DNA from: a virus
Length of the DNA stretch: 64,000 nucleotides
Direction: 5' to 3' (one strand)
Virus record (IMG/VR): IMGVR_UViG_3300045141_000130
Location: 9,358 to 73,357 of that record
In this document: positions 39,723 to 53,874 of the stretch, piece by piece
Numbering within the stretch: position 1 is the first letter of the stretch
Layout of the letters: the number at the start of each line of letters is the position of its first letter
The notes under the pieces: model-generated
Told to the model about the DNA's origin: nothing
Database searches by the model: none
Seen by the model: the letters and a program-made list of their open reading frames with translations, nothing else
Translations under genes and position numbers: made by a program

Positions 39723-40252
39723 CTGTCCACCAGGTCGGTGATCCGCACGCCGGTGGCGATCTGGAGGCGCATCTTCTCCCGCTGCTTGCCGCTGGTGCCG
39801 CCCCACACCCCGTAGCGCATGTCGTGCTCCAAGGCGTACGTCAGGCACTCCAGGTCCACCGGGCACACGGCGCACACCCGGCGGGCCGTCTCCACCGCCA
39901 CGATCAGGTCCTCCGGCGCCTGCCGGTCCTCCGTCCCGAAGAACAGCGGCTCCGACAGGTCCAGCGGCAACTTGCGGCACAACGCCCGGCCATGCCAGGA
40001 CGCCTGGGAGTACCGGGACCGTGGGGCCGGAGGGTCCGCGTCAGGAAGGTCCGGCAGGTCGGCCGCTGTATCGACACTCCCAGGCGTCGACCAGTGACGG
40101 TATCGGATCGTCCACACCCCGAGCGCGATCTGCACCCGGTCCCCGGGGCTGTCACCCTCGGGTGGTGCCGACAGCCATCGCATGTCGACCGACACGTCAA
40201 GCACCGGACCCGGGTGGAATGCGACAGGGTCCGCGCCGAGGGTGGCGAGCAT
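39710..40252 (-). CDS. whiB: WhiB family transcription factor (N-terminally extended)
   Basis: WHGRALC..LFF..ARRVCAVCPVDLECL..YGVWGGTS: four Cys plus GVWGG. Confidence 0.9.
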   Translation of the reverse strand: MLATLGADPVAFHPGPVLDVSVDMRWLSAPPEGDSPGDRVQIALGVWTIRYRHWSTPGSVDTAADLPDLPDADPPAPRSRYSQASWHGRALCRKLPLDLSEPLFFGTEDRQAPEDLIVAVETARRVCAVCPVDLECLTYALEHDMRYGVWGGTSGKQREKMRLQIATGVRITDLVDRWLG

Positions 40253-40263
40253 CGAGGGTTCCC

Positions 40264-40515
40264 CTAACGGGTAGCCCGAAGCGTGATGGTTCCCTCGGCG
40301 TCCCGCCAGGCCATCAGGTCCGGCTGATCCACCACCGCGCTGTCGGAGACCTGAATCTCATTGCTGTGCGAAAGCTGCTGGACCATCTCCACCAGAACGG
40401 CGAGGACTTGGATAGTCACTGCGTACTCGACTTCCAGGTCGCACAACCGCTCAACGCTTTTGAGTAGCTGGTCGTCACGCTTCACTAGACGTGAGGGTAA
40501 CGGATTGATGATCAA
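40264..40515 (-). CDS. Hypothetical protein
   Basis: 83-aa ORF between coupled genes. Confidence 0.5.
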   Translation of the reverse strand: MIINPLPSRLVKRDDQLLKSVERLCDLEVEYAVTIQVLAVLVEMVQQLSHSNEIQVSDSAVVDQPDLMAWRDAEGTITLRATR

Positions 40516-40522
40516 TCAGGCG

Positions 40523-41008
40523 CTACGCCTCCGAACCTTTCGCCAACTCGGCGACCCGGCGGGCCTTCCCCTCGTCCAGTTCGGCCTCCACGGCAACGGC
40601 CATGTCGAGCAGCCGCACCGACTTCTCGACCTTCCCCGCCTCCGCGTACTCCTTGCCCCGCTTCCGGTAGTCGCGCACCCGCCCCGCCAGGCGACGGCGG
40701 TGCTGCAACTCCGATGCCGTGAACATCCGCTGGCGACCCCGCAGTCCGCCCTCCCGTCGTGTGGTGAGGAACTGACGGATGTGCTCGACGCGATCCGGTG
40801 TGTACAGCAGTATCTCGACGTCCTCGTAGCTGGCCCGGTGGGTGGCCCCCAGGTTGTCCTCGGGGTAGGTCTTGGCGAGGTAGGACAGCATCGACAGGGT
40901 GATGCCGAGGCTCTCGGCCACCTCATATCGCAGGAAGAAGGGGTGTTCCAGCGATCTGACCCACTGGACCATGGGGTGGTCGGCGTACGGGGACCCTAAT
41001 CTGGGCAT
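40523..41008 (-). CDS. Hypothetical HTH-like protein, first gene of the leftward arm
   Basis: AAGGAG upstream. FLRYEVAESLGITLSML HTH-like pattern. Confidence 0.6.
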   Translation of the reverse strand: MPRLGSPYADHPMVQWVRSLEHPFFLRYEVAESLGITLSMLSYLAKTYPEDNLGATHRASYEDVEILLYTPDRVEHIRQFLTTRREGGLRGRQRMFTASELQHRRRLAGRVRDYRKRGKEYAEAGKVEKSVRLLDMAVAVEAELDEGKARRVAELAKGSEA

Positions 41009-41051
41009 TCCTGAGACTCCTTGTCTCCCAACGGGTCTGGCGACCCGAACG

Positions 41052-41081
41052 TTGCATTACTGCACAAAAGGATGCTACAAT
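41052..41081 (+). promoter_or_regulatory. SigA-like promoter of the rightward accessory arm
   Basis: TTGCAT-N18-TACAAT with a TGn extended -10, at the strand switch. Confidence 0.7.
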
Positions 41082-41226
41082 AGAGATATGCGTTGCGGCG
41101 TGCCCAAAAACAGGGCCGCCGGGGCCCACGGAGCAGATCTCCGTGGGCCCTTCCCATATCGGGGCGCACACCCACAAGCCGTCCGGCTCACCCCGGGCGG
41201 CTTTCGTGTCTGGAGAGGACACTGCA

Positions 41227-41850
41227 ATGTTCAAGTTCCACCGCAGCAACGGCAAGCACGTCGCCGCCGAGCACACCTGCCCGCTGGCCGTCACCCTCCC
41301 CACCGTCGGCCGCCACGTCGACGCCCGGACCACCGCGAAGTTCATCGTGGCCGGTGCCAAGGTGCAGGCCGAGGCGATCATCGCCGAGGGCAAGGCGCAG
41401 GCCGAGTCGGTCCTCAAGGCCGACGCGGAGTTGCGCGTCAAGCTGGCCCAGATGACCGCTGACGCCAAGGCCGAGGCTGACGCCAAGGCCAAGGCGCAGC
41501 GCGACGCCCAGAGGGCGGCGGACAACGCCATCGCCGACTGGCGCTACGAGGCAGCCCGCGCCGACCGCCGCGAGCGCAAGCACCAGGTGCGTCTTGCCAA
41601 GGCGCAGAACGCCACCGCGGCGATGAGGGCCGCTGCCGACGAGAAGATCGCGGCGTTCAACGCCCAGGCCGCGAGCGCGGCAGCCGCGAACGACACGATC
41701 GACCTGGCCTTCCAGGCGAGCGAGATCCAGATGCTTGCCGAGCAGGTTGCGAAGCTCGCTGGTGACCTGGCTGCCAAGCAGGTCGAGAAGGACCTCGCCG
41801 ACCTGGCGATCCAGCACCTGATCGACCGGACGGTCCCTGCGGCCGCCTGA
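41227..41850 (+). CDS. Ala-rich coiled-coil hypothetical protein (first early gene)
   Basis: ATG after GGAGAGGA. 207 aa, starts MFKFHRSNGKHV. Confidence 0.75.
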   Translation: MFKFHRSNGKHVAAEHTCPLAVTLPTVGRHVDARTTAKFIVAGAKVQAEAIIAEGKAQAESVLKADAELRVKLAQMTADAKAEADAKAKAQRDAQRAADNAIADWRYEAARADRRERKHQVRLAKAQNATAAMRAAADEKIAAFNAQAASAAAANDTIDLAFQASEIQMLAEQVAKLAGDLAAKQVEKDLADLAIQHLIDRTVPAAA

Positions 41851-41990
41851 GACTTGGCGTGGCACGGCACGGCTGGGCTTGGCCTGGCGTGGCGTGGCCG
41901 GGCAAGCCATGGCTTGGCAAGGCATGGTTTGGCTGGGTCCGGCCTGGCAAGGCACGGCGCGGCAAGGTAAGGGTCCCTCGCAAGGGGGAC
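41851..41990 (+). repeat. GGY-NN pentamer array 1 (24 units) plus GCAA-loop hairpin; putative guide RNA
   Basis: GACTT GGCGT GGCAC GGCAC GGCTG...GGTAA GG, then GTCCCTC-GCAA-GGGGGAC. Confidence 0.92.
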
Positions 41991-42115
41991 AAGTAGTACC
42001 CGCAATACAGCAGCCCCCCAGCATCCGTGCTGGGGGGCTGCTGGCGTTTTTCGGCGTATTACCCCCAGGCCAACCGGTCTGGGGTCCCTGCGTTTCTCCT
42101 GAGAGGAGAAAGCAG

Positions 42116-42484
42116 TTGAGCGACACCAGTGGTATCCAGCCCTTCTTCCAAGGCCTGGGGTCCTACCTCGGCGACTACGTCCGCCAGGCGACCGAAGCGT
42201 CCTCCTTCCACGTCGGTGACGGGGTGCGCTACCACGGCTCGAAGGTGGCCGACCACGGCTACTGGAGAGTCCAGGCCGTCCCCGGCAATGGGACGGTCGA
42301 GATCGGGCGGCGCGGGGAGCGCCGGTACCTGGTCGTTCGGCCGCAGTCGATCGACAACCTCCGCGACGAGGTCTGCCGACACTGCGACGCTGCCGAGGTC
42401 TGGCACTACGCGATGCGCGTCGACGACATCGTCGACGGGGATCTGCCGGTGCAGGACCTCTGCTACTCCTGCGAAAACAGGTAG
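42116..42484 (+). CDS. Hypothetical protein (SH3-like plus Zn ribbon)
   Basis: TTG start after GAGGAG. FHVGDGVRY, CRHC..CYSC. Confidence 0.6.
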   Translation: MSDTSGIQPFFQGLGSYLGDYVRQATEASSFHVGDGVRYHGSKVADHGYWRVQAVPGNGTVEIGRRGERRYLVVRPQSIDNLRDEVCRHCDAAEVWHYAMRVDDIVDGDLPVQDLCYSCENR

Positions 42485-42500
42485 CAAACAGCAGCAACGC

Positions 42501-42561
42501 TTCAAGCCCCCCGGCCGCTCGGCCGGGGGGTTCCTGCGTGTCTGGAAAGGACATGGCAATG
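42501..42561 (+). repeat. 61-bp hairpin+RBS leader repeat, copy 1
   Basis: 57/61 identical to 43028-43088. Confidence 0.85.
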
Positions 42562-43017
42562 AGCAACACCAAGAAGCACCGAGGAAGGTTCGCCTTCCTC
42601 CTGGCGGGCATCATCACGGCCCTGCTGATCGCGTCGGCGTTCAGCGTCGGGTGGGTGTCCAACGCGGCGCCCGACCCGGTGCTGAGGCCGCAGCCCGCCG
42701 TCACCGTGCTGACCCACACGGTGCCCACCACCGTGCCCACCACCGTGGTCCACACCCAGGTGGAGACGCAGACCAAGACGGTGACGCGGGTCAGCGCCTA
42801 CTGCGCGGCGGCCATCGCGGATGCCGACGGCATCCAGGCCGAGTGGCTGCAGGTCGCCACCGACATGGGCAACGCCACCTCCGACATGGTCTACGGGGGG
42901 GCGAACGCCGCCAGCAACAGCGAGGTCGAGTCGGCCACCGCGCTGTTGAAGAAGTTGAACGACACCGACATCCCGCAGTACACCGCCGACAAGATCAAGT
43001 GCCAGGCGGGCGAGTAG
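42559..43017 (+). CDS. Membrane-anchored/secreted protein
   Basis: N-terminal basic stretch plus TM helix, Thr/Val-rich stalk, two Cys. Confidence 0.72.
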   Translation: MSNTKKHRGRFAFLLAGIITALLIASAFSVGWVSNAAPDPVLRPQPAVTVLTHTVPTTVPTTVVHTQVETQTKTVTRVSAYCAAAIADADGIQAEWLQVATDMGNATSDMVYGGANAASNSEVESATALLKKLNDTDIPQYTADKIKCQAGE

Positions 43018-43027
43018 CACTCGCAGT

Positions 43028-43088
43028 TTCAAGCCCCCCGGCCGACCGGCCGGGGGGTTCCTGCGTGTCTGGAAAGGACACTGCAATG
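43028..43088 (+). repeat. 61-bp hairpin+RBS leader repeat, copy 2
   Basis: TTCAAGCCCCCCGGCCG-AC-CGGCCGGGGGGTTCCTGCGTGTCTGGAAAGGACACTGCAATG. Confidence 0.85.
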
Positions 43089-43661
43089 CCCACAGAAGTT
43101 CAGCAGTTGAAGGCCGAGCTTGATGCCCTGCGTCTCCGGGTCATCCGGCTTGAAAGCACCACCCGGGGTATGCAGCGCGGCATCACGGCGCTGAAGGCGG
43201 TCGACAAGCCCGACCTGTCGGTGGTCGACTCCCCGGACGTCGAGCACATGGTCAGCCGTCTCGCCGGTGACCTGGCGAAGCGCCTGGGGCTGACCGACAT
43301 CACCCTCACCCCGGAGCAGCGGGAGGCGGAGGTCCAGTCGCGCCGCGACATCGAGCTTCGCGGGCTGCGGGTCGTCAACGAGCAGCTGCTCGCCGAGAAT
43401 GCGAAGCTCCGCGGCGACATCGAGTACCTGCGCAACGAGGCGTCCAGGCTCCGCGGGCTGAAGCTCACCGCCGAGGACGCCCTGGCCAACGATCAGCATG
43501 TGATCGAGGCGCTGCGCAAGGAACTCCGGCAGTTGACGGCCGAGACGATGCGCAGGGTCAACGCCGACAGGCTCGTCACCGAGGCCCCGGTCCTGACCGA
43601 CCCGTGGGAGGGTCTGACCGACCGGCAGCCCCGCAGCCACGGCAAGCCGGTCCGCGGCTGA
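43086..43661 (+). CDS. Coiled-coil hypothetical protein
   Basis: Start MPTEVQQLK after GGAAAGGA. Confidence 0.7.
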   Translation: MPTEVQQLKAELDALRLRVIRLESTTRGMQRGITALKAVDKPDLSVVDSPDVEHMVSRLAGDLAKRLGLTDITLTPEQREAEVQSRRDIELRGLRVVNEQLLAENAKLRGDIEYLRNEASRLRGLKLTAEDALANDQHVIEALRKELRQLTAETMRRVNADRLVTEAPVLTDPWEGLTDRQPRSHGKPVRG

Positions 43662-43867
43662 TGAACCCCTACGAGCAGGTCAGCTTCCGCCTGGCCGTCG
43701 GCGACGTCGTCCACCTGTTCCTGCCCCAGTCGAAGCTGACCGGGGTGGTGGACAGGATCGAGCTTCGCCTCGGCGGGCTCGACTGGACCCGGATCCACGT
43801 ACGGGTCGACGCGGACGGCGTCACCCGCGAATACCCCGTCGGGATGGTCTTCCCGGCGGGCTGCTAG
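43661..43867 (+). CDS. Small SH3-like hypothetical protein
   Basis: MNPYEQ..LAVGDVVHL. TGATG coupling. Confidence 0.6.
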   Translation: MNPYEQVSFRLAVGDVVHLFLPQSKLTGVVDRIELRLGGLDWTRIHVRVDADGVTREYPVGMVFPAGC

Positions 43868-43881
43868 TCCGCAAAAAGCGG

Positions 43882-43913
43882 TACAATGGAGGAGTCGCGT
43901 TGCGGCGTGCCCA
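43882..43913 (+). promoter_or_regulatory. Second early-promoter-like element
   Basis: TACAAT followed by GCGTTGCGGCGTGCCCA, the same 17-mer as at 41090-41106. Confidence 0.6.
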
Positions 43914-43999
43914 CTTTCGGGCCGCTGCGGCGCGATTTCTCGTTTCACCCCCCGGCGACCGTCGGGGGTTTCTTCGTTTCTCGGGAAAGGGAAACAGCA

Positions 44000-44116
44000 A
44001 TGAACGTCCCAGCGCACCACCTCAGGACCGGCCTGATCGTCGCCGTGGTCATGGCGATCATCACCGCGATCTGGGCGGCCGTGTTCGGCCTCGGCCTGAA
44101 GGAGAAGCAGTCGTGA
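44000..44116 (+). CDS. Small membrane protein
   Basis: 38 aa with a TM helix, after GGAAAGGG. Confidence 0.55.
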   Translation: MNVPAHHLRTGLIVAVVMAIITAIWAAVFGLGLKEKQS

Positions 44117-44313
44117 TCAGGATCTTGGTCGTCCTCTTCATCATCTGGGTCTTCGGCGATAAGGACCGCCCCGCCGAGCGCAACAACGACTGACGCATTC
44201 GGCGGGGCCCGGTTTCGACCGGGCCCCTGCCGTGGGTGCCAGTCACACCCAAACGGCCCCCCAGCACTCCCGCTGGGGGGCTTACTTCGTTCCCACGAAA
44301 GGGGAACAGCACC

Positions 44314-44643
44314 ATGAGCAACGCATTCACGCAGTACTGCCAGGCCCTCGGCAAGGGTCTGGGCCAGGGCACCACGGCGACCTGGCGCCAGACGAACACC
44401 CTGGCCGGGTTCGCCCAGGTCGTCCTCACCCCGATGGCCATGCGCCCCGCGGTGCTGGTGGGCAACCTGGCCACCAACGTGGTGATCCACTCCACCACGG
44501 CGTTCAAGGAGACGGCAGCGGTCCGCAAGGCCGCGGCGCCCGTCGCCGCCCTGCCCCAGGCGGCTGCCGCAGCCGCTGGCGCCCAGGCCCAGCCTGGGGC
44601 GATCTTCATCGTCCCGCCGGTCAAGACGGCCAGCGGGTCCTGA
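44314..44643 (+). CDS. Hypothetical protein
   Basis: Start MSNAFTQY after GAAAGGGG. Confidence 0.65.
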   Translation: MSNAFTQYCQALGKGLGQGTTATWRQTNTLAGFAQVVLTPMAMRPAVLVGNLATNVVIHSTTAFKETAAVRKAAAPVAALPQAAAAAAGAQAQPGAIFIVPPVKTASGS

Positions 44644-44709
44644 AGTACCGCCGGGGGGCCGCCTGGCCCCCCGGCACCCTTCGTTCCCACAGAAAGGGGA
44701 ACTTGCACC

Positions 44710-45039
44710 ATGTCCACTCCATCAACACCCACCACCGGCCCGGTCACGCTCATCCCGGCCGGGTCCATCGAGTGGGGCGTCATCCAGCAGAACGCCAAGG
44801 ACGTCGTGGCGTTGCGCGCCGAGGTCGCCCTCCTCAAGGAGGCCAAGGAGATCCGCGACCGCCGCATCTCCTGGCTGGAGTCCACCCTCGGCGAGAAGAT
44901 CGCCGAGGTGGTCGCCCTGCGTCGGGAGGCCGCAGTGGCCGGGCTGTCGCTCGACCGCTACCGCGGGCTGATCGACAGCCTCGCCGCACTCAGCAAGGCG
45001 CAGTCCCCGGAGACGGCCGCACCCGCGGCTGCCTCCTGA
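44710..45039 (+). CDS. Coiled-coil hypothetical protein
   Basis: GAAAGGGG RBS, 109 aa. Confidence 0.65.
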   Translation: MSTPSTPTTGPVTLIPAGSIEWGVIQQNAKDVVALRAEVALLKEAKEIRDRRISWLESTLGEKIAEVVALRREAAVAGLSLDRYRGLIDSLAALSKAQSPETAAPAAAS

Positions 45040-45107
45040 TCGACACCGTGGGGCGGGGAGCGCATCCCCGCCCCACGGCCCCAACCCACCAACTCCAAGG
45101 AGGAGTG

Positions 45108-45461
45108 ATGCGCAACCCGTTCCGCAGCAAGGCTGTCGCGTTCGACCCCGAACCGTGGCGGCCCGGTGAACTGTTCACCGAGTACCGCGCCGTCGTCAGT
45201 TCGTTCGACGACGACAAGCAGTTCCCGATCGTCTCGGTGTTGGCCGCCAACGCCGAGCAGGCCCAGCAGGCGATCACCCACGCGGTGAACGCCAAGGCGC
45301 TGGAGATGGGTGTGAGCATGGACTACCTGCAGGTCCAGATGCTGGCCTCCCCGGAGGTCGTCCGGGTCTGGAACCAGGACATCAACACCCGGTCGTGGGG
45401 CGTGTTCGCCACGCCCGCCAACCACGCCGCCATCGAGGCCCCGAAGAGGAAGGCCTCCTGA
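45108..45461 (+). CDS. Hypothetical protein
   Basis: Start MRNPFRSK after AAGGAGGAG. Confidence 0.7.
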   Translation: MRNPFRSKAVAFDPEPWRPGELFTEYRAVVSSFDDDKQFPIVSVLAANAEQAQQAITHAVNAKALEMGVSMDYLQVQMLASPEVVRVWNQDINTRSWGVFATPANHAAIEAPKRKAS

Positions 45462-45916
45462 TGACGACCCCCCGGCGGAAGCTCCCCAAGATCAACCCCG
45501 CCATGGCGATCGCCGGGGGGATCGGCATGGGGGGACTTGCCCCGGTCCGCCCCCGCCGGTCCCTGGGGCGGGTCAAGGACGCGGCGTTCCAGCCCGTGGA
45601 GCGCAAGTACGTGGACGTGTCCGACAACCCGCAGTGGCTGGCCCTGGAACCCCAGCTAGACAGGGCACGCAAGGCCGTGGAGCGCTGGGAGGACAAGGAG
45701 GTCGACGCCAACACCGCCATGCGAGAGATCGCGGGCGACCAGGATGTCGAAGGCCTCCGGTTCCGCCTGTTCCACAGCCACCCGCAAGGTCCCGTCAACC
45801 TGGAACTGCTGGCCGCCCACTTCGGCGTCAGCATCGGGTTCCTCGACAGGTTCCGGGACCCGCGGCGGCACAGCGTCACCATCCAGCGCATCGTCGGGCG
45901 GAGGCGGAAGCGATGA
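45461..45916 (+). CDS. Hypothetical protein
   Basis: TGATG coupling, GAGGAAGG RBS. Confidence 0.6.
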   Translation: MTTPRRKLPKINPAMAIAGGIGMGGLAPVRPRRSLGRVKDAAFQPVERKYVDVSDNPQWLALEPQLDRARKAVERWEDKEVDANTAMREIAGDQDVEGLRFRLFHSHPQGPVNLELLAAHFGVSIGFLDRFRDPRRHSVTIQRIVGRRRKR

Positions 45917-46134
45917 CCGAGCACGTCTACACGGTCACCATCACCCACCTCACCCTGGAGGCGAAGGAGGCCGACGCGATGATGACGACGGCCATCGAGG
46001 CGCTGGGCGGCATGCTGTACGAGTACTCCGGGGGCCTGGCGGCGTACGAGGTGACCGGCTTTCGCCACGGCGACGGCGAGGTCATCGGGTACGTCCACGA
46101 CCCGGACGAGTTGGAAGATGAGGAGGGGACATGA
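45913..46134 (+). CDS. Hypothetical protein
   Basis: Start MTEHVY, ATGA overlap. Confidence 0.6.
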   Translation: MTEHVYTVTITHLTLEAKEADAMMTTAIEALGGMLYEYSGGLAAYEVTGFRHGDGEVIGYVHDPDELEDEEGT

Positions 46135-46469
46135 ACGCCGCCCCCGCTGCCGATACCGGCGGCCTGTGCTGGGAGCAGCTGCCCAGCGACCAGGCCGCCG
46201 CGCTCGTCCTCGTCGACCTGTACCGGGCGCACCTGTCCACCAGCGAGTCCAGCCGCCGCTACCGCATCGTGGTGGCGGCGTACAACCAGTGGCTGGGCGC
46301 CGTCAAGGTGATGGGCTTCGTCTGGCACCGCAGTCCCGACGACATCCGCGATGCGGTCATCGACACCGTGATGGCCGTCGGCCGGGCCTACCACAGCGAC
46401 GACAAGGCGCAGTGGCAGGACCGGGCGATGTACGGCGTGCTGGGAAAGCTGCACCTGCACGACGACTGA
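46131..46469 (+). CDS. Hypothetical protein
   Basis: GAGGAGGGG RBS, 112 aa. Confidence 0.65.
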   Translation: MNAAPAADTGGLCWEQLPSDQAAALVLVDLYRAHLSTSESSRRYRIVVAAYNQWLGAVKVMGFVWHRSPDDIRDAVIDTVMAVGRAYHSDDKAQWQDRAMYGVLGKLHLHDD

Positions 46470-46479
46470 CGCAGTCTCT

Positions 46480-46502
46480 GGCCCACCCTTCGGGGTGGGC
46501 CA
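46480..46502 (+). terminator. Hairpin, terminator candidate
   Basis: GGCCCACCC-TTCG-GGGTGGGCC with a T-run shortly downstream. Confidence 0.5.
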
Positions 46503-46619
46503 GGGGTCTGCGATTTTTTGCGTTTCCGGGGAAAAGATGATCTTGAACCCTCCGATTGGTGTCGGAGGGTCGATTCATGCTGTCCGGAACCACCGGCAGC
46601 ACCCGAAAGGAGGGCCGCT

Positions 46620-47975
46620 GTGACAACAGCGAGTCCCGAGCGCATCGGAAATGCGCACACCGCAGTAGCGCGAGGTGCCGAGTTCGGCGACATCCTCGCG
46701 TTGCTCAACAAGCAGCAGGCCAGGAAGGTCGACATCGTCATTCCTGGCAGCAAACTGCTCGTCCGGGACGGCATGCTCGTCGTCGCCGACGACGTCGTCG
46801 ACATGAGCGACGAAGGGGTGACCCGGGTCGGCGGCGAGTATTGGCCCACCACCTGGTTCGACGCCCACGTCGCCGAACGGTTGGACATTCCTGTTGCCTA
46901 TCTGCGCCGCCTGCGCAACGGCAGGGAGATCGTCGGCACCAGGGGTCGCAGCCGCACCCTCGGCCCGCGACTGGACCTGTACGACAGCAACGTCAACGGG
47001 TTGTTCCGCGGCAACGACGACGTCCCGCCGGACCTGCGGAACTTCTACGCCCGGCTGCTCGTCCCCGACGACCAGGACACCAACGGCATCGCCTACGCGC
47101 TGATGTCCTCCAAGTACTGGAGGCTGGACAACTACGACGCGATCATGGCCACCCTGTCCGGCATCCGCAAGGCCGGGATCGACCCGCTGTCGTTGCACAT
47201 CTACGGCGACCTGTCGGAGACGAAGCTGTACCTGCACGTCCACGCGCCGCAGGTGCTCACCGCCGCACCCGAACTGCTGCGCAACTACCGCAGCCCGTTC
47301 GACATCCAGGGCGAGGCAAGCAAACGCCAGGTTCCGGCCTACACGCTGGAGCAGAGGGTGGCCATGGGCCGCCAGTGGCGGGAGACCCACCGGCTGGACG
47401 AACACATCCAGCCCGGCTCCGAACCGCTCGTCCACTCCGGTTTCCTGATCACCAACTCGGAGATCGGGCAGGGCCGCTGGTCCATCCAGAAGGAGATCGT
47501 CTTCCTGGCGTGCACCAACGGGATGACCTTGACGGCGGGCCGTTTCGAGCGGCGGCACGTCGGCAGCGACCAGGAGGAGGGCCAGGTCGAATGGTCGGCG
47601 GAAACCCGTGACGCCGAGTTGCAGTGGATCGTCTCCTCGACCGCCGACATCGTGGCCGATGCGCTCAACCCGGAATCCCTGGAGAACACCGTCACCGCCC
47701 TGGAGCAGAAGGCGGGGCGCACCGTGGACGACCCGCGACGCACCATCGCGGTCGTCGCCCAGAAGCACCTGTTCAACAAGGACGAGGAGGAGGCGATCCT
47801 CCGCCACTTCGAGTTGGGTCAGGCCTTCACCAGTGCCGGTGTGGCGCAGGCCATCTCGTCCGTCGCCCAGATGTACGAGGACCCGGACCGGGCGCACAAG
47901 CTGACCGACGCCGCCATCCCCGCGATGGAACTCGTCCACTCCCTGAGAAGTACCGGGAGTCGGGCATCCCTCTGA
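46620..47975 (+). CDS. DUF932-family protein
   Basis: GTG after AAGGAGGG. AERLDIPVAYLRRL, ALMSSKYWRLDN, GFLITNSEIGQG, FLACTNGM, ERRHVG. Confidence 0.78.
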   Translation: MTTASPERIGNAHTAVARGAEFGDILALLNKQQARKVDIVIPGSKLLVRDGMLVVADDVVDMSDEGVTRVGGEYWPTTWFDAHVAERLDIPVAYLRRLRNGREIVGTRGRSRTLGPRLDLYDSNVNGLFRGNDDVPPDLRNFYARLLVPDDQDTNGIAYALMSSKYWRLDNYDAIMATLSGIRKAGIDPLSLHIYGDLSETKLYLHVHAPQVLTAAPELLRNYRSPFDIQGEASKRQVPAYTLEQRVAMGRQWRETHRLDEHIQPGSEPLVHSGFLITNSEIGQGRWSIQKEIVFLACTNGMTLTAGRFERRHVGSDQEEGQVEWSAETRDAELQWIVSSTADIVADALNPESLENTVTALEQKAGRTVDDPRRTIAVVAQKHLFNKDEEEAILRHFELGQAFTSAGVAQAISSVAQMYEDPDRAHKLTDAAIPAMELVHSLRSTGSRASL

Positions 47976-48356
47976 GACCTGGCAAGGCCGGGAGAGGCCG
48001 GGCGAGGCATGGCTAGCTTTGGCACGCAAGGGCGAGGCTTGGCTTGGCTAGGCGTGGCAAGGCGTGGCTAGGCGGGGAATGGCAAGGCGAGGTATGGAAT
48101 GCCGAGGCGGTGCATGGCCGGGCTAGGCCAGGTTCGGCGCGGTATGGCTCGGCAAGGCATGGCGAGGCTCGGTTGGGTCGGCCATGGCGAGGCAAGGCTA
48201 GGCGAGGCGCGGTGTGGCAAGGCGGGGTTCGGCAAGGTCAGGTTCGGCGTGCTCCGGTTTGGTATGGCCAGGTCGGGCTAGGCACGGTCGGGTCCGGTTC
48301 GGCGGGCCTGGGCATGGTATGGGCTCCCCGTAAGTCCCTCATTTGGGCCGGGGAGC
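47976..48356 (+). repeat. GGY-NN pentamer array 2 (69 units) plus UAAGU-bulged hairpin; putative guide RNA
   Basis: GACCT GGCAA GGCCG...GGCAT GGTAT GG in unbroken 5-nt register 47976-48320. Hairpin 48323-48356. Confidence 0.93.
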
Positions 48357-48391
48357 AAACAACAAATCCCTTGAGAGGAAAGGATTTTCGC

Positions 48392-48802
48392 ATGACAGGA
48401 GGACCATCAGACGGGGCGTACGAAGTCCTGAACACGATGCTTCACGACATGCTTCACAGCCCGGGGGCGCAGGCCACGTTCAACATGGACACGCCGATGG
48501 CGACACTCATCGACACGTTCGATCTGGCCTTGCCGCCGGACTCCGACGAGAACTTCACCTGCGATCTGTGCGACCAGGTACACCGGGAGGGCCTGGACCG
48601 CATCGTCACCGCATTCGAGCCTGGCGAGCCACCCACCGACGGCAGCCCCGGGTACGTCAAGATGATCGCCGCCGCGGGCAAGAGCCCCACAGATCTGGCC
48701 ATGGAGAAACTCGACCGACCGAGGGTGATCCTGGTCCTGTACTCGTGCCGCAACTGCTCGCTGGAGATCCAGCAGGGGATGGACCGCCAGGAAACCTTCT
48801 GA
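48392..48802 (+). CDS. Zn-binding hypothetical protein
   Basis: Start MTGGPSD after GAGGAAAGGA. CDLC...CRNC. Confidence 0.65.
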   Translation: MTGGPSDGAYEVLNTMLHDMLHSPGAQATFNMDTPMATLIDTFDLALPPDSDENFTCDLCDQVHREGLDRIVTAFEPGEPPTDGSPGYVKMIAAAGKSPTDLAMEKLDRPRVILVLYSCRNCSLEIQQGMDRQETF

Positions 48803-49226
48803 GACGTGCTGTGGCATGGCGTGACTCGGTGGGGCGAGGCGGGGCATGCTTTGGCGCGGCGAGGCGGGGCTAGGCGTGGCCAGGCACGGCGCGGTTCGGC
48901 TCGGCGGGGCGAGGCGAGACATGGCAGGCCAAGGCAGGGCACGGTGCGGTTCGGCTGGCCATGGCTTGGTGTTGGCACGGCTGGGCTCGGCAGGGAATGG
49001 CTAGGCCTGGTTTGGTGCGGCCGGGAGTGGCTCGGCTAGGCAAGGTCGGGTTAGGCGTGGCTCGGCGTGGCAAGCCTTGGCGCGGCGCGGTGTGATCAGG
49101 TTGGGTGTGCCGCGGTTTGGCTTGGTCGGGTTAGGCGCGGCGTGGCATGACTTGGCTCGGTGTGGCTCGGCATGGAAGGCCAGGGCACGGTTTGGGTTCT
49201 CCGTAAGTCCCTTCGGGCCGGAGAAC
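48803..49226 (+). repeat. GGY-NN pentamer array 3 (78 units, one 6-nt unit) plus UAAGU-bulged hairpin; putative guide RNA
   Basis: GACGT GCTGT GGCAT...GGCAC GGTTT GG. Hairpin GTTCTCCG...CGGAGAAC at 49196-49226. Confidence 0.93.
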
Positions 49227-49280
49227 AAAGGGGGATTGGGGGGGGCGTATACAACCTCGAAACTCTTTGGGAGAACAAGA

Positions 49281-50339
49281 ATGACGAGTACGGAAACACA
49301 GATACGTGCAGTGTCTGACGCACCGTTCGCAATGACGCCGCATTTGTTGCGGATGCTGCGCGAGCGGCCTGTCGGGGTCCAGCGGATCCTGCGCAGGACC
49401 GACACCGGGGAGTTGAGGGCGTTCCTCGACCCCACCGCCGCAGACCAGGGCTTCTGGACCGCCCTCCCCGTCTGGCGTTCGGCGGAATGGCGCTACGACG
49501 ACAGCCGCTGGCTGGCCAGCACCGGCAGCCTGTCGTCGCCGGAGAACCTGGTGGACAACCTCGGCTGGTTCGACGTCCCGATCGTCTGGGCCATCACCGA
49601 GACCCCGTACTTCGCGGAGTTGCTCGCGGCCCGGTCGGACGACACGGTGCTGGTGATGGGTGACCCGCGGGACGGCGAACTGCGGTGCTACAAGGAGCGG
49701 AACTGGGACGAGTACCCCGCCCAGAGCGGCTGGCAGGCGTGGCCGACCGTCCGCGATCCCCTCAACCGGTCCTACGGCCCGGATCTCAACTGGCTGACCC
49801 ACAACTTCGGCGCCGTCTCCCTGCAGCAGGTCAAGGACGCCGGTTTCATCAAGGTGTGGGAGAAGGCCGAGGAGAACCCCATCCTCGTCGAGGTCAACCC
49901 GGAGGTGAACCGGCTGCAACTGCGCATCACCGACCTGGAGTCCACCCTGGCCACTCTGCGCACCCAGAACCAGACGCAGCAGCGGCGCCTGGAGCAGATG
50001 TCCAACGACCACGAGCGGTTCAAGGAGTTGGTGTCCTCCACCGCCACCAAGTACGCCCGGCGGCACGACTGGTGCTCCGTCGTCGACGAGGCGCTGGAGG
50101 AGATGGGACTGGAGAGGGAGCCGGTCAGCTTCAGCGGGGTCATCAGCGTCCGCATCAACTTCACCGCCAACCGCACCGACGGTGAACGTGGCACCCCGAA
50201 CGCCCGTGACGTCAACCGCTGGCTGTACGGCGAGGATGACGTGCGTGAAGCCATCGGCGAGAACCTCAGCCTCGACGAGGATTACGCCGGTGACTTCGAG
50301 ATCGACAGCTACAGCTTCGAGGTCATCTCCACCTCGTAG
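49281..50339 (+). CDS. Hypothetical protein (Trp-rich N-terminus, coiled coil)
   Basis: Start MTSTETQIR after GGGAGA. 352 aa. Confidence 0.72.
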   Translation: MTSTETQIRAVSDAPFAMTPHLLRMLRERPVGVQRILRRTDTGELRAFLDPTAADQGFWTALPVWRSAEWRYDDSRWLASTGSLSSPENLVDNLGWFDVPIVWAITETPYFAELLAARSDDTVLVMGDPRDGELRCYKERNWDEYPAQSGWQAWPTVRDPLNRSYGPDLNWLTHNFGAVSLQQVKDAGFIKVWEKAEENPILVEVNPEVNRLQLRITDLESTLATLRTQNQTQQRRLEQMSNDHERFKELVSSTATKYARRHDWCSVVDEALEEMGLEREPVSFSGVISVRINFTANRTDGERGTPNARDVNRWLYGEDDVREAIGENLSLDEDYAGDFEIDSYSFEVISTS

Positions 50340-50420
50340 TGCGCTACGCAGTAGCAGCCCCCCTGCCACCCGGCAGGGGGGCTTCCTTGTCCGCAAAAAC
50401 ACCTGAAAGGTGGTTCTGCT

Positions 50421-51041
50421 GTGCCAGACGTCGACGACGAAGACCCGTCACGACACACGTACGAGAGCCGGGAGATGGCCGAACGGGAACTGGCGGGCTG
50501 GTTCCCGCCGTCGGTCCCCGAGGAGGCCAAACCGGAACTCATGCGCATCGCCATCGTCGAACACCCCGGGCAGGAACCCCTGCGCACCCTGTGGAGCATC
50601 CACCCGGAGTTCGTCTACCTGACGAACCCCGAACTGTGGATGCTCGTCACCTGGATCACCGGTGACGAGCGTTCCCGCGGCAGCCTCCGCGGGATACCGC
50701 TGCTACTGGTCCAGCTGGCAGCGCTGCGCGATCACCATGTCGCGCTCATCGGGCAACTCAACGAACTGACATCCAACCAGGAGGCAAACACCATGACCGA
50801 ACCCATCAACGTCGACCCCAGCACCGTGATCCATCAGGGAACGATCAGCATCGCCATCGACTTCCGGGCAACCTTGGCGCCCACCGAGTTCCTGGAGGGC
50901 GACGACATCGAGGAGGCGCTGAACAAGTTCGCCGACCTGGAGGCGATCAAGAACGCCATCAAGGCCGCTCCCCGGCTCGACGGCATCTCCATCGAGAGCA
51001 TCTCGTTCGGTGCTCAGGTGGCCAGCTTTTTGACCAGCTGA
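50421..51041 (+). CDS. Hypothetical protein, with a strong internal in-frame start at 50793
   Basis: GAAAGGTGG before GTG 50421. AGGAGG before ATG 50793. Confidence 0.55.
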   Translation: MPDVDDEDPSRHTYESREMAERELAGWFPPSVPEEAKPELMRIAIVEHPGQEPLRTLWSIHPEFVYLTNPELWMLVTWITGDERSRGSLRGIPLLLVQLAALRDHHVALIGQLNELTSNQEANTMTEPINVDPSTVIHQGTISIAIDFRATLAPTEFLEGDDIEEALNKFADLEAIKNAIKAAPRLDGISIESISFGAQVASFLTS

Positions 51042-51047
51042 CCTTCT

Positions 51048-51218
51048 GACGTGGCCAGGGCTTGGCAAGCCGTGGCGGGGTCGGGTCGGCCGTGGCGTGG
51101 CTAGACAGGGCCGGGTTTGGTGTGGCTCGGAATGGTGCGGCGAGCCAGGGTTCGGCTCGGCATGGCATGGCCGGGTTCGGTGAGGTATGGGGCCCCCCAG
51201 CCTTCGGGCTGGGGGGCC
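51048..51218 (+). repeat. GGY-NN pentamer array 4 (~28 units) plus cUUCGg hairpin; putative guide RNA
   Basis: GACGTG GCCAG GGCTT GGCAA...GGTGA GGTAT GG, then GGCCCCCCAGCC-TTCG-GGCTGGGGGGCC. Confidence 0.93.
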
Positions 51219-51240
51219 ATCCTCGTCGCAGGGGGGTTGC

Positions 51241-51429
51241 GGCGAGGCTGGCTGAGGCGCGGCGCGGCGGGGCAGGGTCCGGCTTGGCCAGGCATGGCTG
51301 GGCGAGGTTGGGTGTGGGGTGGTTAGCCGAGGTCCGGCGCGGCTGGCTGGGGTTCGGCGGGGTGGGGCTTGGTCTGGCGTGCCCAGGCACGGTGAGGTAT
51401 GGGGCCCGCCACGGGGGGTGTGGCGAGCC
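51241..51429 (+). repeat. GGY-NN pentamer array 5 (32 units) plus hairpin; putative guide RNA
   Basis: GGCGA GGCTG...GGTGA GGTAT GG, then GGCCCGCCAC...GTGGCGAGCC. Confidence 0.92.
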
Positions 51430-51431
51430 AT

Positions 51432-51789
51432 GGATAGGACTGGCAAGGCTGGACCTGGCGGGGCAAGGTCGGACAGGGCAAGGCGTGGCCTGGTGCGGCT
51501 GGGTTAGGCACGGCCTGGTGCGGCTAGCTTCGGCGGGGCGTTGGCTCGGCATGGCCTGCCGTGGAAAGGTTGGCCGAGGCAAGGCGTGGCAAGGCGCGGC
51601 GAGGTGAGGCCTGGCAGGGCAGGGCGCGGCGAGGCGGGGCAGGCCACGGCGGGGCGAGGTGTGGTCAGGTTCAGGTGGGGTCTGGGTCTGGCGTGGCAGC
51701 GGCTGGGCCAGGCCCGGTTTGGCCAGGCGCGGCGTGGTATGGGCCGCCCGTAAGTCCTTAGCCGCCGGATGCGGCTAAGGCCGGGCGGC
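51432..51789 (+). repeat. GGY-NN pentamer array 6 (~61 units, four 6-nt units) plus UAAGU-bulged hairpin; putative guide RNA
   Basis: GGATA GGACT GGCAA...GGCGT GGTAT GG. Hairpin 51743-51789. Confidence 0.9.
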
Positions 51790-51814
51790 GAAACAAGTCT
51801 TCCTTCCAATCTCA

Positions 51815-51937
51815 GGCTAGGCATGCCGAGCACAGGCATGGCCTGGATAGGTGCGGCGCGCTGCGGTTGGCCGTGGCTCGGCAGGGAAAGGCTTGGCAAG
51901 GCGAGGTATGGGTCCCCAAGGAGAAGCCTTGCGGGAC
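51815..51937 (+). repeat. GGY-NN pentamer array 7 (19 units) plus hairpin; putative guide RNA
   Basis: GGCTA GGCAT...GGCGA GGTAT GG, then GTCCCCAAGG-AGAAG-CCTTGCGGGAC. Directly upstream of the RAMP gene. Confidence 0.9.
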
Positions 51938-51956
51938 AAGAACAAAGGAGCACGCC

Positions 51957-52640
51957 GTGGTTACACGGAGCCGCAGTACCGCAGTGAAGCCGGACCCGGA
52001 GCCGAACGCTCTGGACGGTGATGTGAGCGACTCGGGCAACGCCACGTACGAGGCCAACCGGCCCTTCCGGGCGGCCGTCGAGATCACCGGCGACTCGGTG
52101 ATCCTGTTCCACCGTTGGCAGTCCGACGCGGTCGACGCGAAGGCCGCTGCCGCCAAGGGGTCCCGAGCGAAGAAGACCGATGATGTTGATTCTTACGTTT
52201 GGGAGAACGAGAACGGGGTGCTGTGCCTGCCCGGCGAGTACCTGCGTTGCTCGCTCACCAACCCGCAGAACGGTGCCGCGAAGTACCTTCAGGACCCGCG
52301 GTCCCCCCGCAAGTCGGCCTTGGATTTGTTCAAGGCTGGTGTTGTCAGCCTCACCGACCTGGCCCCGATCACCAAGGCGGACGGCACACCGGCCGAGGGC
52401 TGGGACCACCTGGACCGCCGCCGCGTGGTGGTGCAGAGGTCGGGCGTCACCCGCTCCCGGCCCGCATTCGCCACCGGCTGGAAGGCGGAGATCATTTTGA
52501 TGTCTCTGCTGCCTCAATACATCAGCCCGTCATTGCTGCGGACGACGCTGTCCGACGCTGGGAAACTCGTTGGGGTGGGCGACTTCCGGCCCACCTTCGG
52601 CCGGTTCAGCGTCACGAAGTTTGAGGTCCTCCAGGACTAG
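51957..52640 (+). CDS. Stand-alone RAMP/Cas7-like RNA-binding protein (putative effector of the GGY-NN arrays)
   Basis: GTG after AAAGGAG, 227 aa. N-terminal strand AAVEITGDSVILFH. GVLCLPGEYLRCSL resembles the Cas7-group IPGSSxKG motif. Basic thumb-like DRRRVVVQRSGVTRSRP. C-terminal Gly-rich loop AGKLVGVGDFRPTFGRFSV. Confidence 0.78.
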   Translation: MVTRSRSTAVKPDPEPNALDGDVSDSGNATYEANRPFRAAVEITGDSVILFHRWQSDAVDAKAAAAKGSRAKKTDDVDSYVWENENGVLCLPGEYLRCSLTNPQNGAAKYLQDPRSPRKSALDLFKAGVVSLTDLAPITKADGTPAEGWDHLDRRRVVVQRSGVTRSRPAFATGWKAEIILMSLLPQYISPSLLRTTLSDAGKLVGVGDFRPTFGRFSVTKFEVLQD

Positions 52641-52901
52641 GCGAGGCTGGGCTGGGCATGGCGCGGCTGGGCGCGGCAAGGCCTGGCTAGGAATGGCAAG
52701 CCGGGGCGCGGCTAGGCGAGGCTGGGCGGGGTCAGGTGGGGCTAGGTTCGGCGTGGCATGGCGAGACATGGCTCGGCTGGGCAAGGCGTGCCTTGGCAAG
52801 GCGCGGCGCGGCTGGGAAAGGCAAGGTCGGGTGGGGCCTGGCGAGGTCCGGCCGGGTATGCCGAGGCTCGGTGAGGTATGGGTTTCACCCTCGGGTGAGA
52901 C
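52635..52901 (+). repeat. GGY-NN pentamer array 8 (49 units) plus hairpin; putative guide RNA
   Basis: GACTA GGCGA (overlapping the TAG stop)...GGTGA GGTAT GG, then GTTTCACC-CTCG-GGTGAGAC. Confidence 0.93.
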
Positions 52902-52918
52902 GAGAAGTATTGGCCTGC

Positions 52919-52947
52919 TTGCGTTCTCGGTTTTGACCCCATACAAT
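52919..52947 (+). promoter_or_regulatory. SigA-like promoter
   Basis: TTGCGT-N17-TACAAT. Confidence 0.65.
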
Positions 52948-53075
52948 GGGGACATGCCTTCCGAACAACTGGGCGCCGCTGAGGCGAACACCAGCGGGAG
53001 GCGAAGCACTGGATGTCCGTTGCGGGGTGCAAGTCCCCGGTTCCTGCAAAGAGCCACGGAGTCCGGTTCGACCTA

Positions 53076-53111
53076 GAGGCCCCGCCTGATTCGTCAGGCG
53101 GGGCCTCTTTC
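53076..53111 (+). terminator. Intrinsic terminator-like hairpin
   Basis: GAGGCCCCGCCTGA-TTCG-TCAGGCGGGGCCTC followed by TTT. Confidence 0.65.
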
Positions 53112-53170
53112 GTTGTGTGCCCGGCAGCATTCCCGCTGCCGGGCTTTCGCATTTCTCCAAGGAGGAGAGC

Positions 53171-53479
53171 ATGACAACAGCGGTTGTGAAGAAGGCAAAA
53201 GCGGGGACCGTGCTCGTCACGGCCGAGATGTACGCCGTGATCCGCGAGACGAAGAAGGGCCACGTCAAGGTGGACCTGATGCTCCGCCTGCCGAAGCCGA
53301 GCCAGCAGGGACTGGTACGGCTGTGCCGCCGCACCTTCTACGCCTACGGGCACACCGGCTACCGGTCCCAGGACGCACAGCGCTGGGCTGAGGCGGAGGC
53401 CTGGGCCAACGCCCGGCTGTACGCGCTGAGCACCGGCCCACGCCGCCAGTTCCTGTATCTCACCGGGGCGCAGAACTGA
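53171..53479 (+). CDS. Hypothetical basic protein
   Basis: Start MTTAVVKK after AAGGAGGAG. Confidence 0.65.
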   Translation: MTTAVVKKAKAGTVLVTAEMYAVIRETKKGHVKVDLMLRLPKPSQQGLVRLCRRTFYAYGHTGYRSQDAQRWAEAEAWANARLYALSTGPRRQFLYLTGAQN

Positions 53480-53874
53480 TGGCCGGGATGATCACCAGGC
53501 TGGACGGGACGCCGCTGGACGAGTCGGACTCGGCCATGGTCGCTGCGTGGTTGGGCAAACGGGCGGTGCAGCGTGGCCCCAGGGTGGGGGACCATGTCGA
53601 GTTCGCCGATGGCAAGACCCTGGTCATCGCCACCCGCTGGGGCAGCGGCATCCAGGTCACCACGGGGGGGACGTTCTATCTGCGAGACAACGGCAGGCTC
53701 GTCTGCGAGAGCCCGTCGTTCCAGTCCGTCAACGACCAGGGCCTCACCCGGTCGGCCAGGACGGTGTACACGAAGGTCTGGTTCTACCATCGCGGCGAGC
53801 CTGTCGCGGGCGGTGGGATCGAGATCAATGTTCCTTCACGGTGCTACCGCTCTCCGACGCGGTCGCCGAAATAA
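53479..53874 (+). CDS. Hypothetical protein
   Basis: TGATG coupling. GPRVGDHVEFADG..IQVT.GGTFYL pattern. Confidence 0.65.
   Translation: MAGMITRLDGTPLDESDSAMVAAWLGKRAVQRGPRVGDHVEFADGKTLVIATRWGSGIQVTTGGTFYLRDNGRLVCESPSFQSVNDQGLTRSARTVYTKVWFYHRGEPVAGGGIEINVPSRCYRSPTRSPK

What the first reader, a model, noticed from the sequence alone, without database searches (positions are those of the whole stretch)
41851..41970. Array 1 encodes a gapped antisense copy of the RBS and first codons of the gene just upstream of it
Seen: the reverse-complemented NN of units 15 to 1 (at tt aa at tt cg ac ac ag aa ca gt gt ac aa) align to codon positions 1-2 of 41227-41271 (ATG TTC AAG TTC CAC CGC AGC AAC GGC AAG CAC GTC GCC GCC GAG). 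The match is 21/30 identities, and three more positions would be G:U pairs. Units 23 to 16 (tt gc gt tt ag gg ca aa) match the leader at 41202-41225, including the AGAGGA RBS, at 11/16 with a 1-nt offset. Inference: either imperfect autoregulation of the first early gene, or a guide against the orthologous first gene (roughly MFKIFRTTSKHVVTK) of a sibling phage, as superinfection exclusion.
Basis: partly seen in the sequence, partly recalled or inferred. Interest (0 to 1): 0.85.

Follow-up and report, generated by a model that had tools for sequence, protein, structure and literature searches.

The report
Phage guide RNA mirrors neighbour gene start
A repeat array in this soil phage is a guide RNA of the recently described VIPR system, and its variable bases spell an imperfect copy of the start of the gene beside it, most likely so that it can silence that gene in closely related rival phages while sparing its own.

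Summary
Array 1 is 24 NN-GGY pentamers (41854-41973). Read antisense with one base skipped per dinucleotide, it matches the first 15 codons of the upstream gene at 21/30. It matches the RBS leader at 11/16 with a 1-nt register shift. Over all 24 units the score is 32/48. None of 1600 shuffled arrays reaches that anywhere in the 73-kb genome.

The geometry is the published "1-nt skip rule" of VIPR systems (bioRxiv 10.64898/2026.04.26.720920). The window holds a full VIPR locus:
- a Vipr homologue at 51957-52640 with a Cas7/Csm3-like fold, related to the phage SUSP1 protein (BLASTP E 2e-11);
- about 317 GGY/NN units, all on the + strand;
- eight tails with the GGTATGGG junction also seen in SUSP1.

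The self match (67-70%) lies below the 80% used for natural targets. The only full-length homologue found comes from a 73,213-bp sibling contig. It differs at three of the first 15 codons, and all three changes move towards the guide (predicted 24/30).

Best reading: a guide against the first early gene of sibling phages. Autoregulation is not excluded. This is a new member of a known kind. No sibling DNA could be fetched, so the cognate target is inferred.

The parts
41199..41226 (+). Leader and RBS (GGAGAGGA at 41212-41219) of the first rightward gene. This is the near-target of the tail-proximal units 24-16 of vrRNA1, one base out of register with the coding part.
   Evidence: 11/16 for units 23-16 at 41202-41225. 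Offsets -4..+4 give 4-7, except -1 which gives 11 of 18.
41227..41271 (+). First 15 codons of the gene. This is the near-target of units 15-1, with NN on codon positions 1-2 and the skipped base at the wobble position.
   Evidence: 21/30, the single maximum in the window.
41227..41850 (+). First gene of the rightward (early-looking) gene block: 207 aa, alanine-rich and predicted mostly coiled coil, no known family.
   Evidence: GC3 0.90 ORF. No Pfam or PHROG hit. Only two homologues in 5.8 billion proteins. The atlas gives no family.
41854..41973 (+). vrRNA1 repeat tract: 24 pentamers NN-GGY. It starts 3 nt after the stop codon of the gene.
41966..41993 (+). Junction and tail of vrRNA1: GGTAAGGG, then a 7-bp hairpin with a GCAA loop, then AAG.
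   Evidence: Regex and alignment by eye with seven other tails. The hairpin is present in the MFE fold. The same GGTATGGG junction occurs in phage SUSP1 vrRNAs.
42008..42052 (+). Intrinsic terminator (16-bp stem plus T run) that closes the transcription unit of gene plus vrRNA1.
47979..48360 (+). vrRNA array region 2: blocks of 7, 13, 29 and 13 units, with a tail at 48316.
48811..49235 (+). vrRNA array region 3: blocks of 7, 24, 24 and 15 units, with a tail at 49189.
51057..51945 (+). vrRNA array region 4: blocks of 26, 18, 10, 17, 21, 8, 5 and 9 units, with tails at 51184, 51396, 51736 and 51905.
51957..52640 (+). vipr: a 227-aa RAMP (Cas7-like) protein with the C-terminal glycine-rich motif GVGDFRPTFGRF. 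The GTG start at 51957 is inferred.
   Evidence: tblastn hits in 38 of 119 array-bearing viral loci at E<1e-3. BLASTP E 2e-11 to the SUSP1 protein that sits between that phage's arrays. AF2 pLDDT 87.9. Foldseek top hits are Cas7/Csm3, E 8.6e-7. VIA Z 11.1.
52638..52905 (+). vrRNA array region 5: 48 in-phase units, with a tail at 52875.

Best explanation
Array 1 is a VIPR guide RNA (vrRNA).

Inferred from the sequence layout:
- It is transcribed with the first rightward gene (stop codon, 3 nt, array, tail hairpin, terminator).
- Vipr protomers encoded 10 kb downstream would bind each GGY and present the NN dinucleotides.

Taken from the published mechanism, not tested here:
- The filament reads double-stranded DNA with one base skipped per dinucleotide and represses transcription.

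Inferred cognate target:
- A 72-nt site covering the RBS and first 15 codons of the orthologous first early gene in closely related (sibling) phages. Silencing it would block a co-infecting or superinfecting rival at its first transcription unit.
- The phage's own copy is spared by 16 mismatches in 48 positions and a 1-nt register shift between RBS and ATG.
- Guide and resistant target allele lie 600 bp apart, so recombination between siblings would rarely separate them.
For: - Geometry is identical to the published rule: NNx target, skip at the wobble base, GGY not pairing. Only skip 1 gives the match.
- The match is non-random: 32/48 against 0 of 1600 genome-wide shuffles.
- The locus is VIPR. 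There is a Vipr homologue with a Cas7-like fold related to the SUSP1 protein. There are 317 GGY/NN units in 18 in-phase blocks, all on the + strand. Eight tails carry the SUSP1-type GGTATGGG junction.
- The self match of 67-70% is below the 80% used for natural targets, and the papers report no self hits at 80% or more. Here too, none of the window's guides reaches 20/24 on its own genome.
- Sibling protein P0002 (78% identical, from a 73,213-bp contig) differs from self in codons 1-15 only at S7T, N8T and A14T. The guide specifies AC (Thr) at all three, so the predicted match rises from 21/30 to 24/30.
- A relative in run X4 has a contig identical over 41954-42100 (last four units, tail and terminator) but with different repeat units just upstream. 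Siblings therefore share the tail and vary the guide.
- Precedent: SUSP1-family vrRNAs aimed at relatives' vipr early codons or vrRNAs, with self-match lower than non-self match.
Against: - No sibling DNA could be fetched. The 24/30 is inferred from amino acids, and nothing is known about the sibling's leader or register.
- Even 24/30 is only at the published threshold. No perfect or near-perfect target was seen.
- S/A/N-to-T changes are common substitutions, so 3 of 3 is suggestive, not decisive.
- Near-self matches are not general. The other 17 blocks of this phage show nothing above shuffles on its own genome. In 171 blocks of 119 other loci, own-locus scores barely exceed shuffles: mean 15.9 against 15.7; 19/24 in 4 of 171 against 6 of 855.
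- The 15-unit match alone is reached somewhere in the genome by 19 of 400 shuffles.
- vrRNA1 has 24 units, whereas the characterised vrRNAs have 9-16.
- Expression, RNP formation and DNA binding are untested for this clade.
Confidence: 0.6

Rival explanations
1. Autoregulation. Vipr loaded with vrRNA1 binds the phage's own RBS/start region despite imperfect pairing. It turns down the first early transcription unit once Vipr has accumulated, acting as an early-to-middle switch or negative feedback.
For: - The best match of vrRNA1 in the whole genome is its own transcription unit's 5' end.
- The guide is co-transcribed with the target.
- Sites at identities from 0.72 are counted among REP decoy sites in the third VIPR paper (passage), so about 70% may not be inert.
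Against: - Identity is 67-70%, with a register shift that puts either the tail-proximal or the distal part out of phase.
- The published natural targets are at 80% or more, and no self hit at 80% or more is reported.
- Selection for self-regulation should keep complementarity high.
- The sibling's three substitutions move towards this phage's guide.
- Mismatch tolerance is not given in the text read.
Confidence: 0.13
2. Decaying or retired guide. vrRNA1 once matched a target homologous to this site, and guide or targets have since drifted. The similarity is historical and has no present function.
For: - Only 32/48 match, and no target at 80% or more was found in anything searched.
- The tail junction is a variant: GGTAAGGG rather than GGTATGGG.
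Against: - 22 of 24 units keep GGY.
- The tail hairpin and terminator are intact.
- The stretch 41954-42100 is identical in a relative, which argues for maintenance by selection.
Confidence: 0.12
3. Chance resemblance. Array 1 is a genuine vrRNA whose real target lies elsewhere, and the match to the neighbouring gene start is coincidental.
For: - 19 of 400 shuffles reach 21/30 somewhere in the genome.
- The +1/-1 segment score is unexceptional.
- The split point and the shift were chosen after seeing the data.
Against: - 0 of 1600 shuffles reach 32/48 even when split point, shift, strand and position are left free.
- The hit lies in frame at the start codon of the adjacent, co-transcribed gene. 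Fixed-site P is 2.8e-6 for the coding part, and 12 of 146,670 genome positions reach 11 for the leader part.
- The sibling changes go towards the guide.
Confidence: 0.05

Closest known systems
VIPR systems (Vipr RAMP protein plus vrRNA), type II of Escherichia phage SUSP1 and a Pseudomonas fulva prophage; bioRxiv 10.64898/2026.04.26.720920 and 10.64898/2026.04.26.720927
   Same: - GGY/NN pentamer guide.
- A 3' tail that begins at a GGTATGGG junction.
- A small Cas7-like protein homologous to the SUSP1 one (E 2e-11).
- NNx target geometry with the skip at the wobble base.
- No self match at 80% or more.
- Phage-encoded.
   Different: - High-GC (68%) uncultivated soil phage.
- GGC rather than mostly GGT scaffold.
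- Tracts of 24-48 in-phase units against 9-16.
- Tail is a simple GC-rich hairpin; a pseudoknot was not examined.
- No vap gene identified next to vipr.
- One vrRNA sits 10 kb from vipr, directly behind the gene whose orthologue it appears to target.
- The VIPR type could not be assigned, because the classification data are in supplements that were closed.
Solo and rival-directed vrRNAs of SUSP1-family phages; bioRxiv 10.64898/2026.10.15.759431
   Same: - vrRNAs aimed at close relatives.
- Footprints on early codons.
- Self-match lower than non-self match, read there as avoidance of autoimmunity.
   Different: - There the targets are vipr or other vrRNAs, and the carriers are often vipr-null.
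- Here the carrier is vipr-positive.
- The inferred target is the RBS and start of the first early gene of unknown function.
- The guide is physically linked to the resistant allele.
Class 1 CRISPR-Cas effector backbones (Cas7/Csm3/Cmr4 filaments on crRNA)
   Same: RAMP fold. Per the papers, protein subunits periodically interrupt guide-target pairing.
   Different: - No CRISPR repeat-spacer array or cas genes were seen.
- Period is 5 in the guide and 3 in the target, instead of 6 and 6.
- The guide is encoded as a hard-wired tandem repeat.

Membership tests
VIPR system | Vipr protein: a small stand-alone RAMP (RRM core, glycine-rich loop, thumb) homologous to published Vipr | tested here: met
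   - BLASTP E 2e-11, 30% over 193 aa, to SUSP1 AVU07_agp039. That gene lies between SUSP1's arrays, as the paper describes.
- AF2 pLDDT 87.9.
- The listed Foldseek top hits are all CRISPR Cas7/Csm3-type chains, best E 8.6e-7.
- VIA Z 11.1, rmsd 4.4, 165 aligned.
- Conserved C-terminal GxGDFRPxFGRF.
- The thumb was not inspected separately.
VIPR system | vrRNA: tandem pentamers with conserved GGY alternating with variable NN, on the strand of vipr | tested here: met
   Array 1 has 22 of 24 units GGY. There are 18 in-phase blocks with 317 units, all on the + strand and none on the - strand of the whole genome.
VIPR system | Conserved structured 3' tail after the repeat tract | tested here: met
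   Eight sites GGT[AT][AT]GGG plus hairpin follow arrays. SUSP1 vrRNAs end in GGTATGGGTAG. The array-1 hairpin appears in the MFE fold. Covariation and a pseudoknot were not tested.
VIPR system | Natural target matching the NN by the 1-nt skip rule at 80% or more | tested here: inconclusive
   Own genome: 32/48, or 21/30 for the coding part. Sibling: predicted 24/30 from protein only. No target in 1.04 Mb of fetched viral loci. Large collections could not be searched with a gapped query.
VIPR system | No self-targeting at 80% or more | tested here: met
   At L=12, no window guide reaches 20/24 on the 73-kb genome; the maximum is 19.
VIPR system | Accessory vap gene next to vipr | not tested
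   vipr is flanked by arrays on both sides. Pfam found nothing in 10 proteins of the rightward gene block, among them the genes either side of the arrays. No fold was made for them.
VIPR system | vrRNA expression, Vipr-vrRNA RNP, dsDNA binding and repression | not testable with these tools
   All runs that hold the stretch are DNA contigs; no RNA run was found.
VIPR system | 9-16 repeats per vrRNA (a description of the characterised clades, not a stated requirement) | tested here: not met
   Array 1 has 24 units before one tail, and other tracts reach 48 in-phase units. The first paper mentions other architectures, such as staggered arrays, whose figures were not available.
Rfam families (including hammerhead-interspersed vrRNA arrays) | Match to a curated RNA family in 40500-54500 | tested here: not met
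   0 matches at E up to 0.1.

The most novel reading that the evidence does not exclude
The gene-plus-guide pair at 41227-41993 is a linked kin-discrimination cassette. Each sibling lineage would carry a first-early-gene allele that resists its own guide, and a guide tuned to the alleles of its rivals. The two would be kept together by their 600-bp linkage, like a poison-antidote pair. VIPR would then drive allele diversification at the very first codons and the RBS spacing of an essential early gene, and would set mutual exclusion groups among otherwise near-identical soil phages. A bolder variant holds that the residual 67-70% self-pairing is itself used as a weak timer on early transcription.
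Probability: 0.25. Interest if true: 0.7.

Novelty: new member of a known kind. Interest (0 to 1): 0.5.

Why it matters
VIPR was described only in 2026, and it has been tested experimentally only in enterobacterial and Pseudomonas systems.

This window shows a complete, much larger VIPR locus in a high-GC soil phage: about 317 repeat units and eight to nine vrRNA tails. One guide's nearest match is the translation start of its own neighbouring gene.

If the sibling-target reading is right, this is a compact natural example of self/non-self discrimination by an RNA-guided system that works through mismatches and a single-base register shift. It also points to the first early gene as a vulnerable point in phage-phage competition.

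It further shows that the 1-nt skip code can be recovered from a single genome, without a target database.

Tried and rejected
Searches for sibling DNA, all empty:
- megablast of 40000-46000 against phages;
- tblastn of the gene against phages;
- The search for related loci with the protein and with the 3-protein alignment in viral and metagenome contigs;
- an exact 45-nt tail stretch in viral and metagenome contigs;
- shorter protein fragments of the N-terminus.

Laying contigs of runs X3-X6:
- A 151-nt X4 contig covers 41131-41281 with 12 differences, but their positions were cut from the table. It cannot be used.
- Its spectrum of changes is not evidence either way.

Target searches with the window's guides:
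- Against 119 fetched array-bearing loci: no excess over shuffles.
- Generalisation of near-self matches to the other 17 blocks: none above shuffles.
- The same test on 171 blocks of other loci: barely above shuffles.

Cross-search of 188 blocks against 1.1 Mb:
- Hits at 20/24 or more: 71 for skip 1, 35 for skip 0, 23 for skip 2, 33 for shuffled guides.
- The best hit (L117 on L058, 23/24) falls on a tandem repeat, so it was not used.

Ideas considered before the literature search and dropped:
- a TRAP-like ring-protein binding array;
- G-quadruplex tracts;
- Chi-like arrays;
- pentapeptide-repeat coding.
The Vipr homology and the published code explain the arrays better.

Other negatives:
- No sigma-70 promoter passed the simple scan in 40900-42600. 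A TTGCAT-18-TACAAT pair near 41054-41083 was seen by eye only.

Not done: a gapped NNx pattern search of the large collections. It would have required typing a sequence derived from the array.

Full report
**What is there**

The window is bases 9358-73357 of a 73,357-bp virus record with direct terminal repeats. It is 68% G+C. Leftward genes end at 41008, and a rightward block starts with an ORF at 41227-41850 (GC3 0.90).

Three bases after its stop codon begin 24 pentamers of the form NN-GGY (19 GGC, 3 GGT, 1 GCC, 1 GGG). They are followed by GGTAAGGG, a 7-bp hairpin with a GCAA loop, and then a 16-bp-stem terminator with a T run at 42008-42052. The gene and the array therefore form one transcription unit.

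Array 1 is not alone. Eighteen in-phase blocks with 317 units lie between 41854 and 52877. All are on the + strand, and there are none elsewhere in the genome.

**Check of the observation**

- Reverse-complemented NN of units 15-1 against codon positions 1-2 of 41227-41271 give 21/30, plus 3 G:U.
- Units 23-16 against 41202-41225 give 11/16, one base out of register.

Chance tests:
- At the fixed site, 0 of 200,000 shuffles reach 21. A pool model gives P = 2.8e-6.
- With the same 15-unit query, 21 is the single maximum on both strands of the window, and the next best is 17.
- With every 15-unit sub-window, both strands and the whole genome left free, 19 of 400 shuffled arrays reach 21 somewhere.
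- A +1/-1 segment score is unexceptional. The 15-unit match alone is therefore only marginal genome-wide.
- The whole guide is decisive. All 24 units, with one register shift of up to 2 nt at any split point, score 32/48 at 41199-41271. None of 1600 shuffles reaches 32 anywhere in the genome; their maximum is 31.
- Skip lengths of 0 and 2 give only 19 and 17 of 30, at unrelated places.

**What it is**

A literature search found bioRxiv 10.64898/2026.04.26.720920. I read its Results, Discussion, methods sections 18, 20, 26 and 27, and some passages. Its supplements were closed. It describes the following:
- VIPR systems consist of a small RAMP protein (Vipr) and vrRNAs of 9-16 GGY/NN repeats with a conserved 3' tail.
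- The NN pair with double-stranded DNA with one target base skipped per dinucleotide, mostly the wobble base.
- Binding represses transcription.
- Natural targets, called at 80% NN match or more, lie in competing phages, satellites and prophages.
- No guide hits its own contig at 80% or more.

**The window carries the rest of the system**

Of 21 translated ORFs, only 51867-52640 is shared with other array-bearing viral contigs. tblastn gives hits in 38 of 119 loci at E<1e-3 and in 44 at E<=0.01.

From its likely GTG start at 51957, this protein:
- hits phage SUSP1 by tblastn (E 4e-4);
- aligns to SUSP1 AVU07_agp039 at E 2e-11, 30% over 193 aa.

That SUSP1 gene lies between intergenic regions holding one upstream and three downstream GGY/NN arrays, as the paper describes.

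Structure evidence:
- A 40-sequence alignment gave an AlphaFold model at pLDDT 87.9.
- Its best Foldseek matches are Cas7/Csm3 chains, with E down to 8.6e-7.
- VIA-align gives Z 11.1 (rmsd 4.4, 165 aligned) to a Cmr subunit and 10.6 to Csm3.

Eight array ends in the window carry GGT[AT][AT]GGG plus a hairpin, and SUSP1's vrRNAs end in GGTATGGGTAG. The protein family is large, with 4854 proteins at E<=1e-5, all unnamed. Rfam has no match and there are no tRNAs.

**How it most likely works**

The own-genome match is 67% overall and 70% for the coding part, below the 80% used for natural targets. It is broken by a 1-nt register shift between RBS and ATG. No guide of this window reaches 20/24 on its own genome.

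The upstream gene has only two homologues among 5.8 billion proteins: a C-terminal fragment, and P0002, which is 78% identical and comes from a 73,213-bp contig, that is, a sibling phage.

In the first 15 codons P0002 differs from self at three positions: S7T, N8T and A14T. The guide specifies AC (Thr) at exactly these three, so the predicted match rises from 21/30 to 24/30. No position moves away from the guide.

Contigs of a soil run (X4) include one that is identical to 41954-42100 (last four units, tail and terminator) but has different repeat units just before. Relatives therefore keep the tail and vary the guide.

A later preprint (10.64898/2026.10.15.759431; I read the abstract, sections 8, 17 and 26, and some passages) reports SUSP1-family vrRNAs aimed at relatives' vipr early codons or vrRNAs. 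Their self-match scores are lower than their non-self scores, which the authors read as avoidance of autoimmunity.

The structural preprint (10.64898/2026.04.26.720927; abstract and passages) shows one protomer per repeat, with complexes resolving from the tail-proximal end. In this phage that is the end facing the out-of-register RBS part.

I therefore read vrRNA1 as a guide against the RBS and start of the orthologous first early gene of sibling phages. Its own allele is protected by mismatches and the register shift. Which steps are shown and which are inferred:
- Shown here: the match, the geometry, VIPR membership of protein, repeats and tail, and the direction of the sibling's substitutions.
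- Taken from the papers: RNP formation, dsDNA binding and repression.
- Inferred: the identity of the cognate target, the protective role of the register shift, and the value of guide-allele linkage.

**Rivals**

- Autoregulation of the phage's own early unit remains possible, because the mismatch tolerance of VIPR is not given in the text I could read. The low identity, the register break and the sibling's substitutions argue against it.
- A decaying guide is argued against by 22 of 24 intact GGY units, an intact tail, and identity of the tail region in a relative.
- Pure chance is argued against and by the position at the adjacent start codon.

**Results that limit the claim**

- No sibling DNA could be obtained.
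- The X4 contig covering the target site differs at 12 positions that the output did not list.
- No target at 80% or more was found in any sequence held.
- Near-self matches are not a general property of vrRNAs, either in this phage or in 171 blocks of 119 other loci.
- The target gene's function is unknown.
- The VIPR type and the meaning of the very long tracts could not be assessed without the papers' supplements.

**Novelty**

The system and its code are in print (2026), and rival-directed guides with reduced self-match are too. This is a new member. It is a high-GC soil phage with an unusually large array complement, and one guide sits directly behind the gene whose orthologue it seems to target.

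Noticed in passing
window 47979-52905: The main VIPR locus is far larger than the published examples. It has about 294 further GGY/NN units in 17 in-phase blocks, with tracts of up to 48 units without a tail, and only seven to eight tails. This suggests long or internally processed vrRNAs, or overlapping ones.
   Followed up: partly
window 48091-48098: A GGTATGGA junction-like motif sits inside array region 2 with no obvious hairpin after it. It may be a degenerate tail or a chance unit.
   Followed up: no
window 52930-53112: Downstream of the last vrRNA tail lies a less GC-rich stretch (including TTGACC...TACAAT-like hexamers too close together), then a structured-looking segment, then a hairpin with a T run near 53078-53112. 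There is no Rfam hit and no tRNA.
   Followed up: partly
L117 (minus strand, block from reverse-complement position 10258) and L058:9238-9272: A guide in one IMG/VR contig matches another contig at 23/24 NN under the 1-nt skip rule. Both the guide and the target are internally repetitive (a 15-nt tandem repeat in the target), so the match may be low-complexity.
   Followed up: partly
L128 (Phage DSL-LC04, OR003939.1) 3680-4588: A cultured-lake phage record carries the closest named Vipr homologue (54% identity), annotated there as a helix-turn-helix regulator. GGY/NN arrays of 20 and 11 units lie just upstream of it.
   Followed up: partly
window 41090-41226: The leader of the first rightward gene holds a strong hairpin (GGGCCCACGGAG...CTCCGTGGGCCC, about 41124-41156). 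On the opposite strand there is a terminator-like site at 41127-41113. A relative's contig (run X3) is 96% alike over 41000-41222.
   Followed up: no
window 57254-63655 (minus strand): A very large ORF of 2133 aa with GC3 0.91 lies on the minus strand. It was not examined.
   Followed up: no
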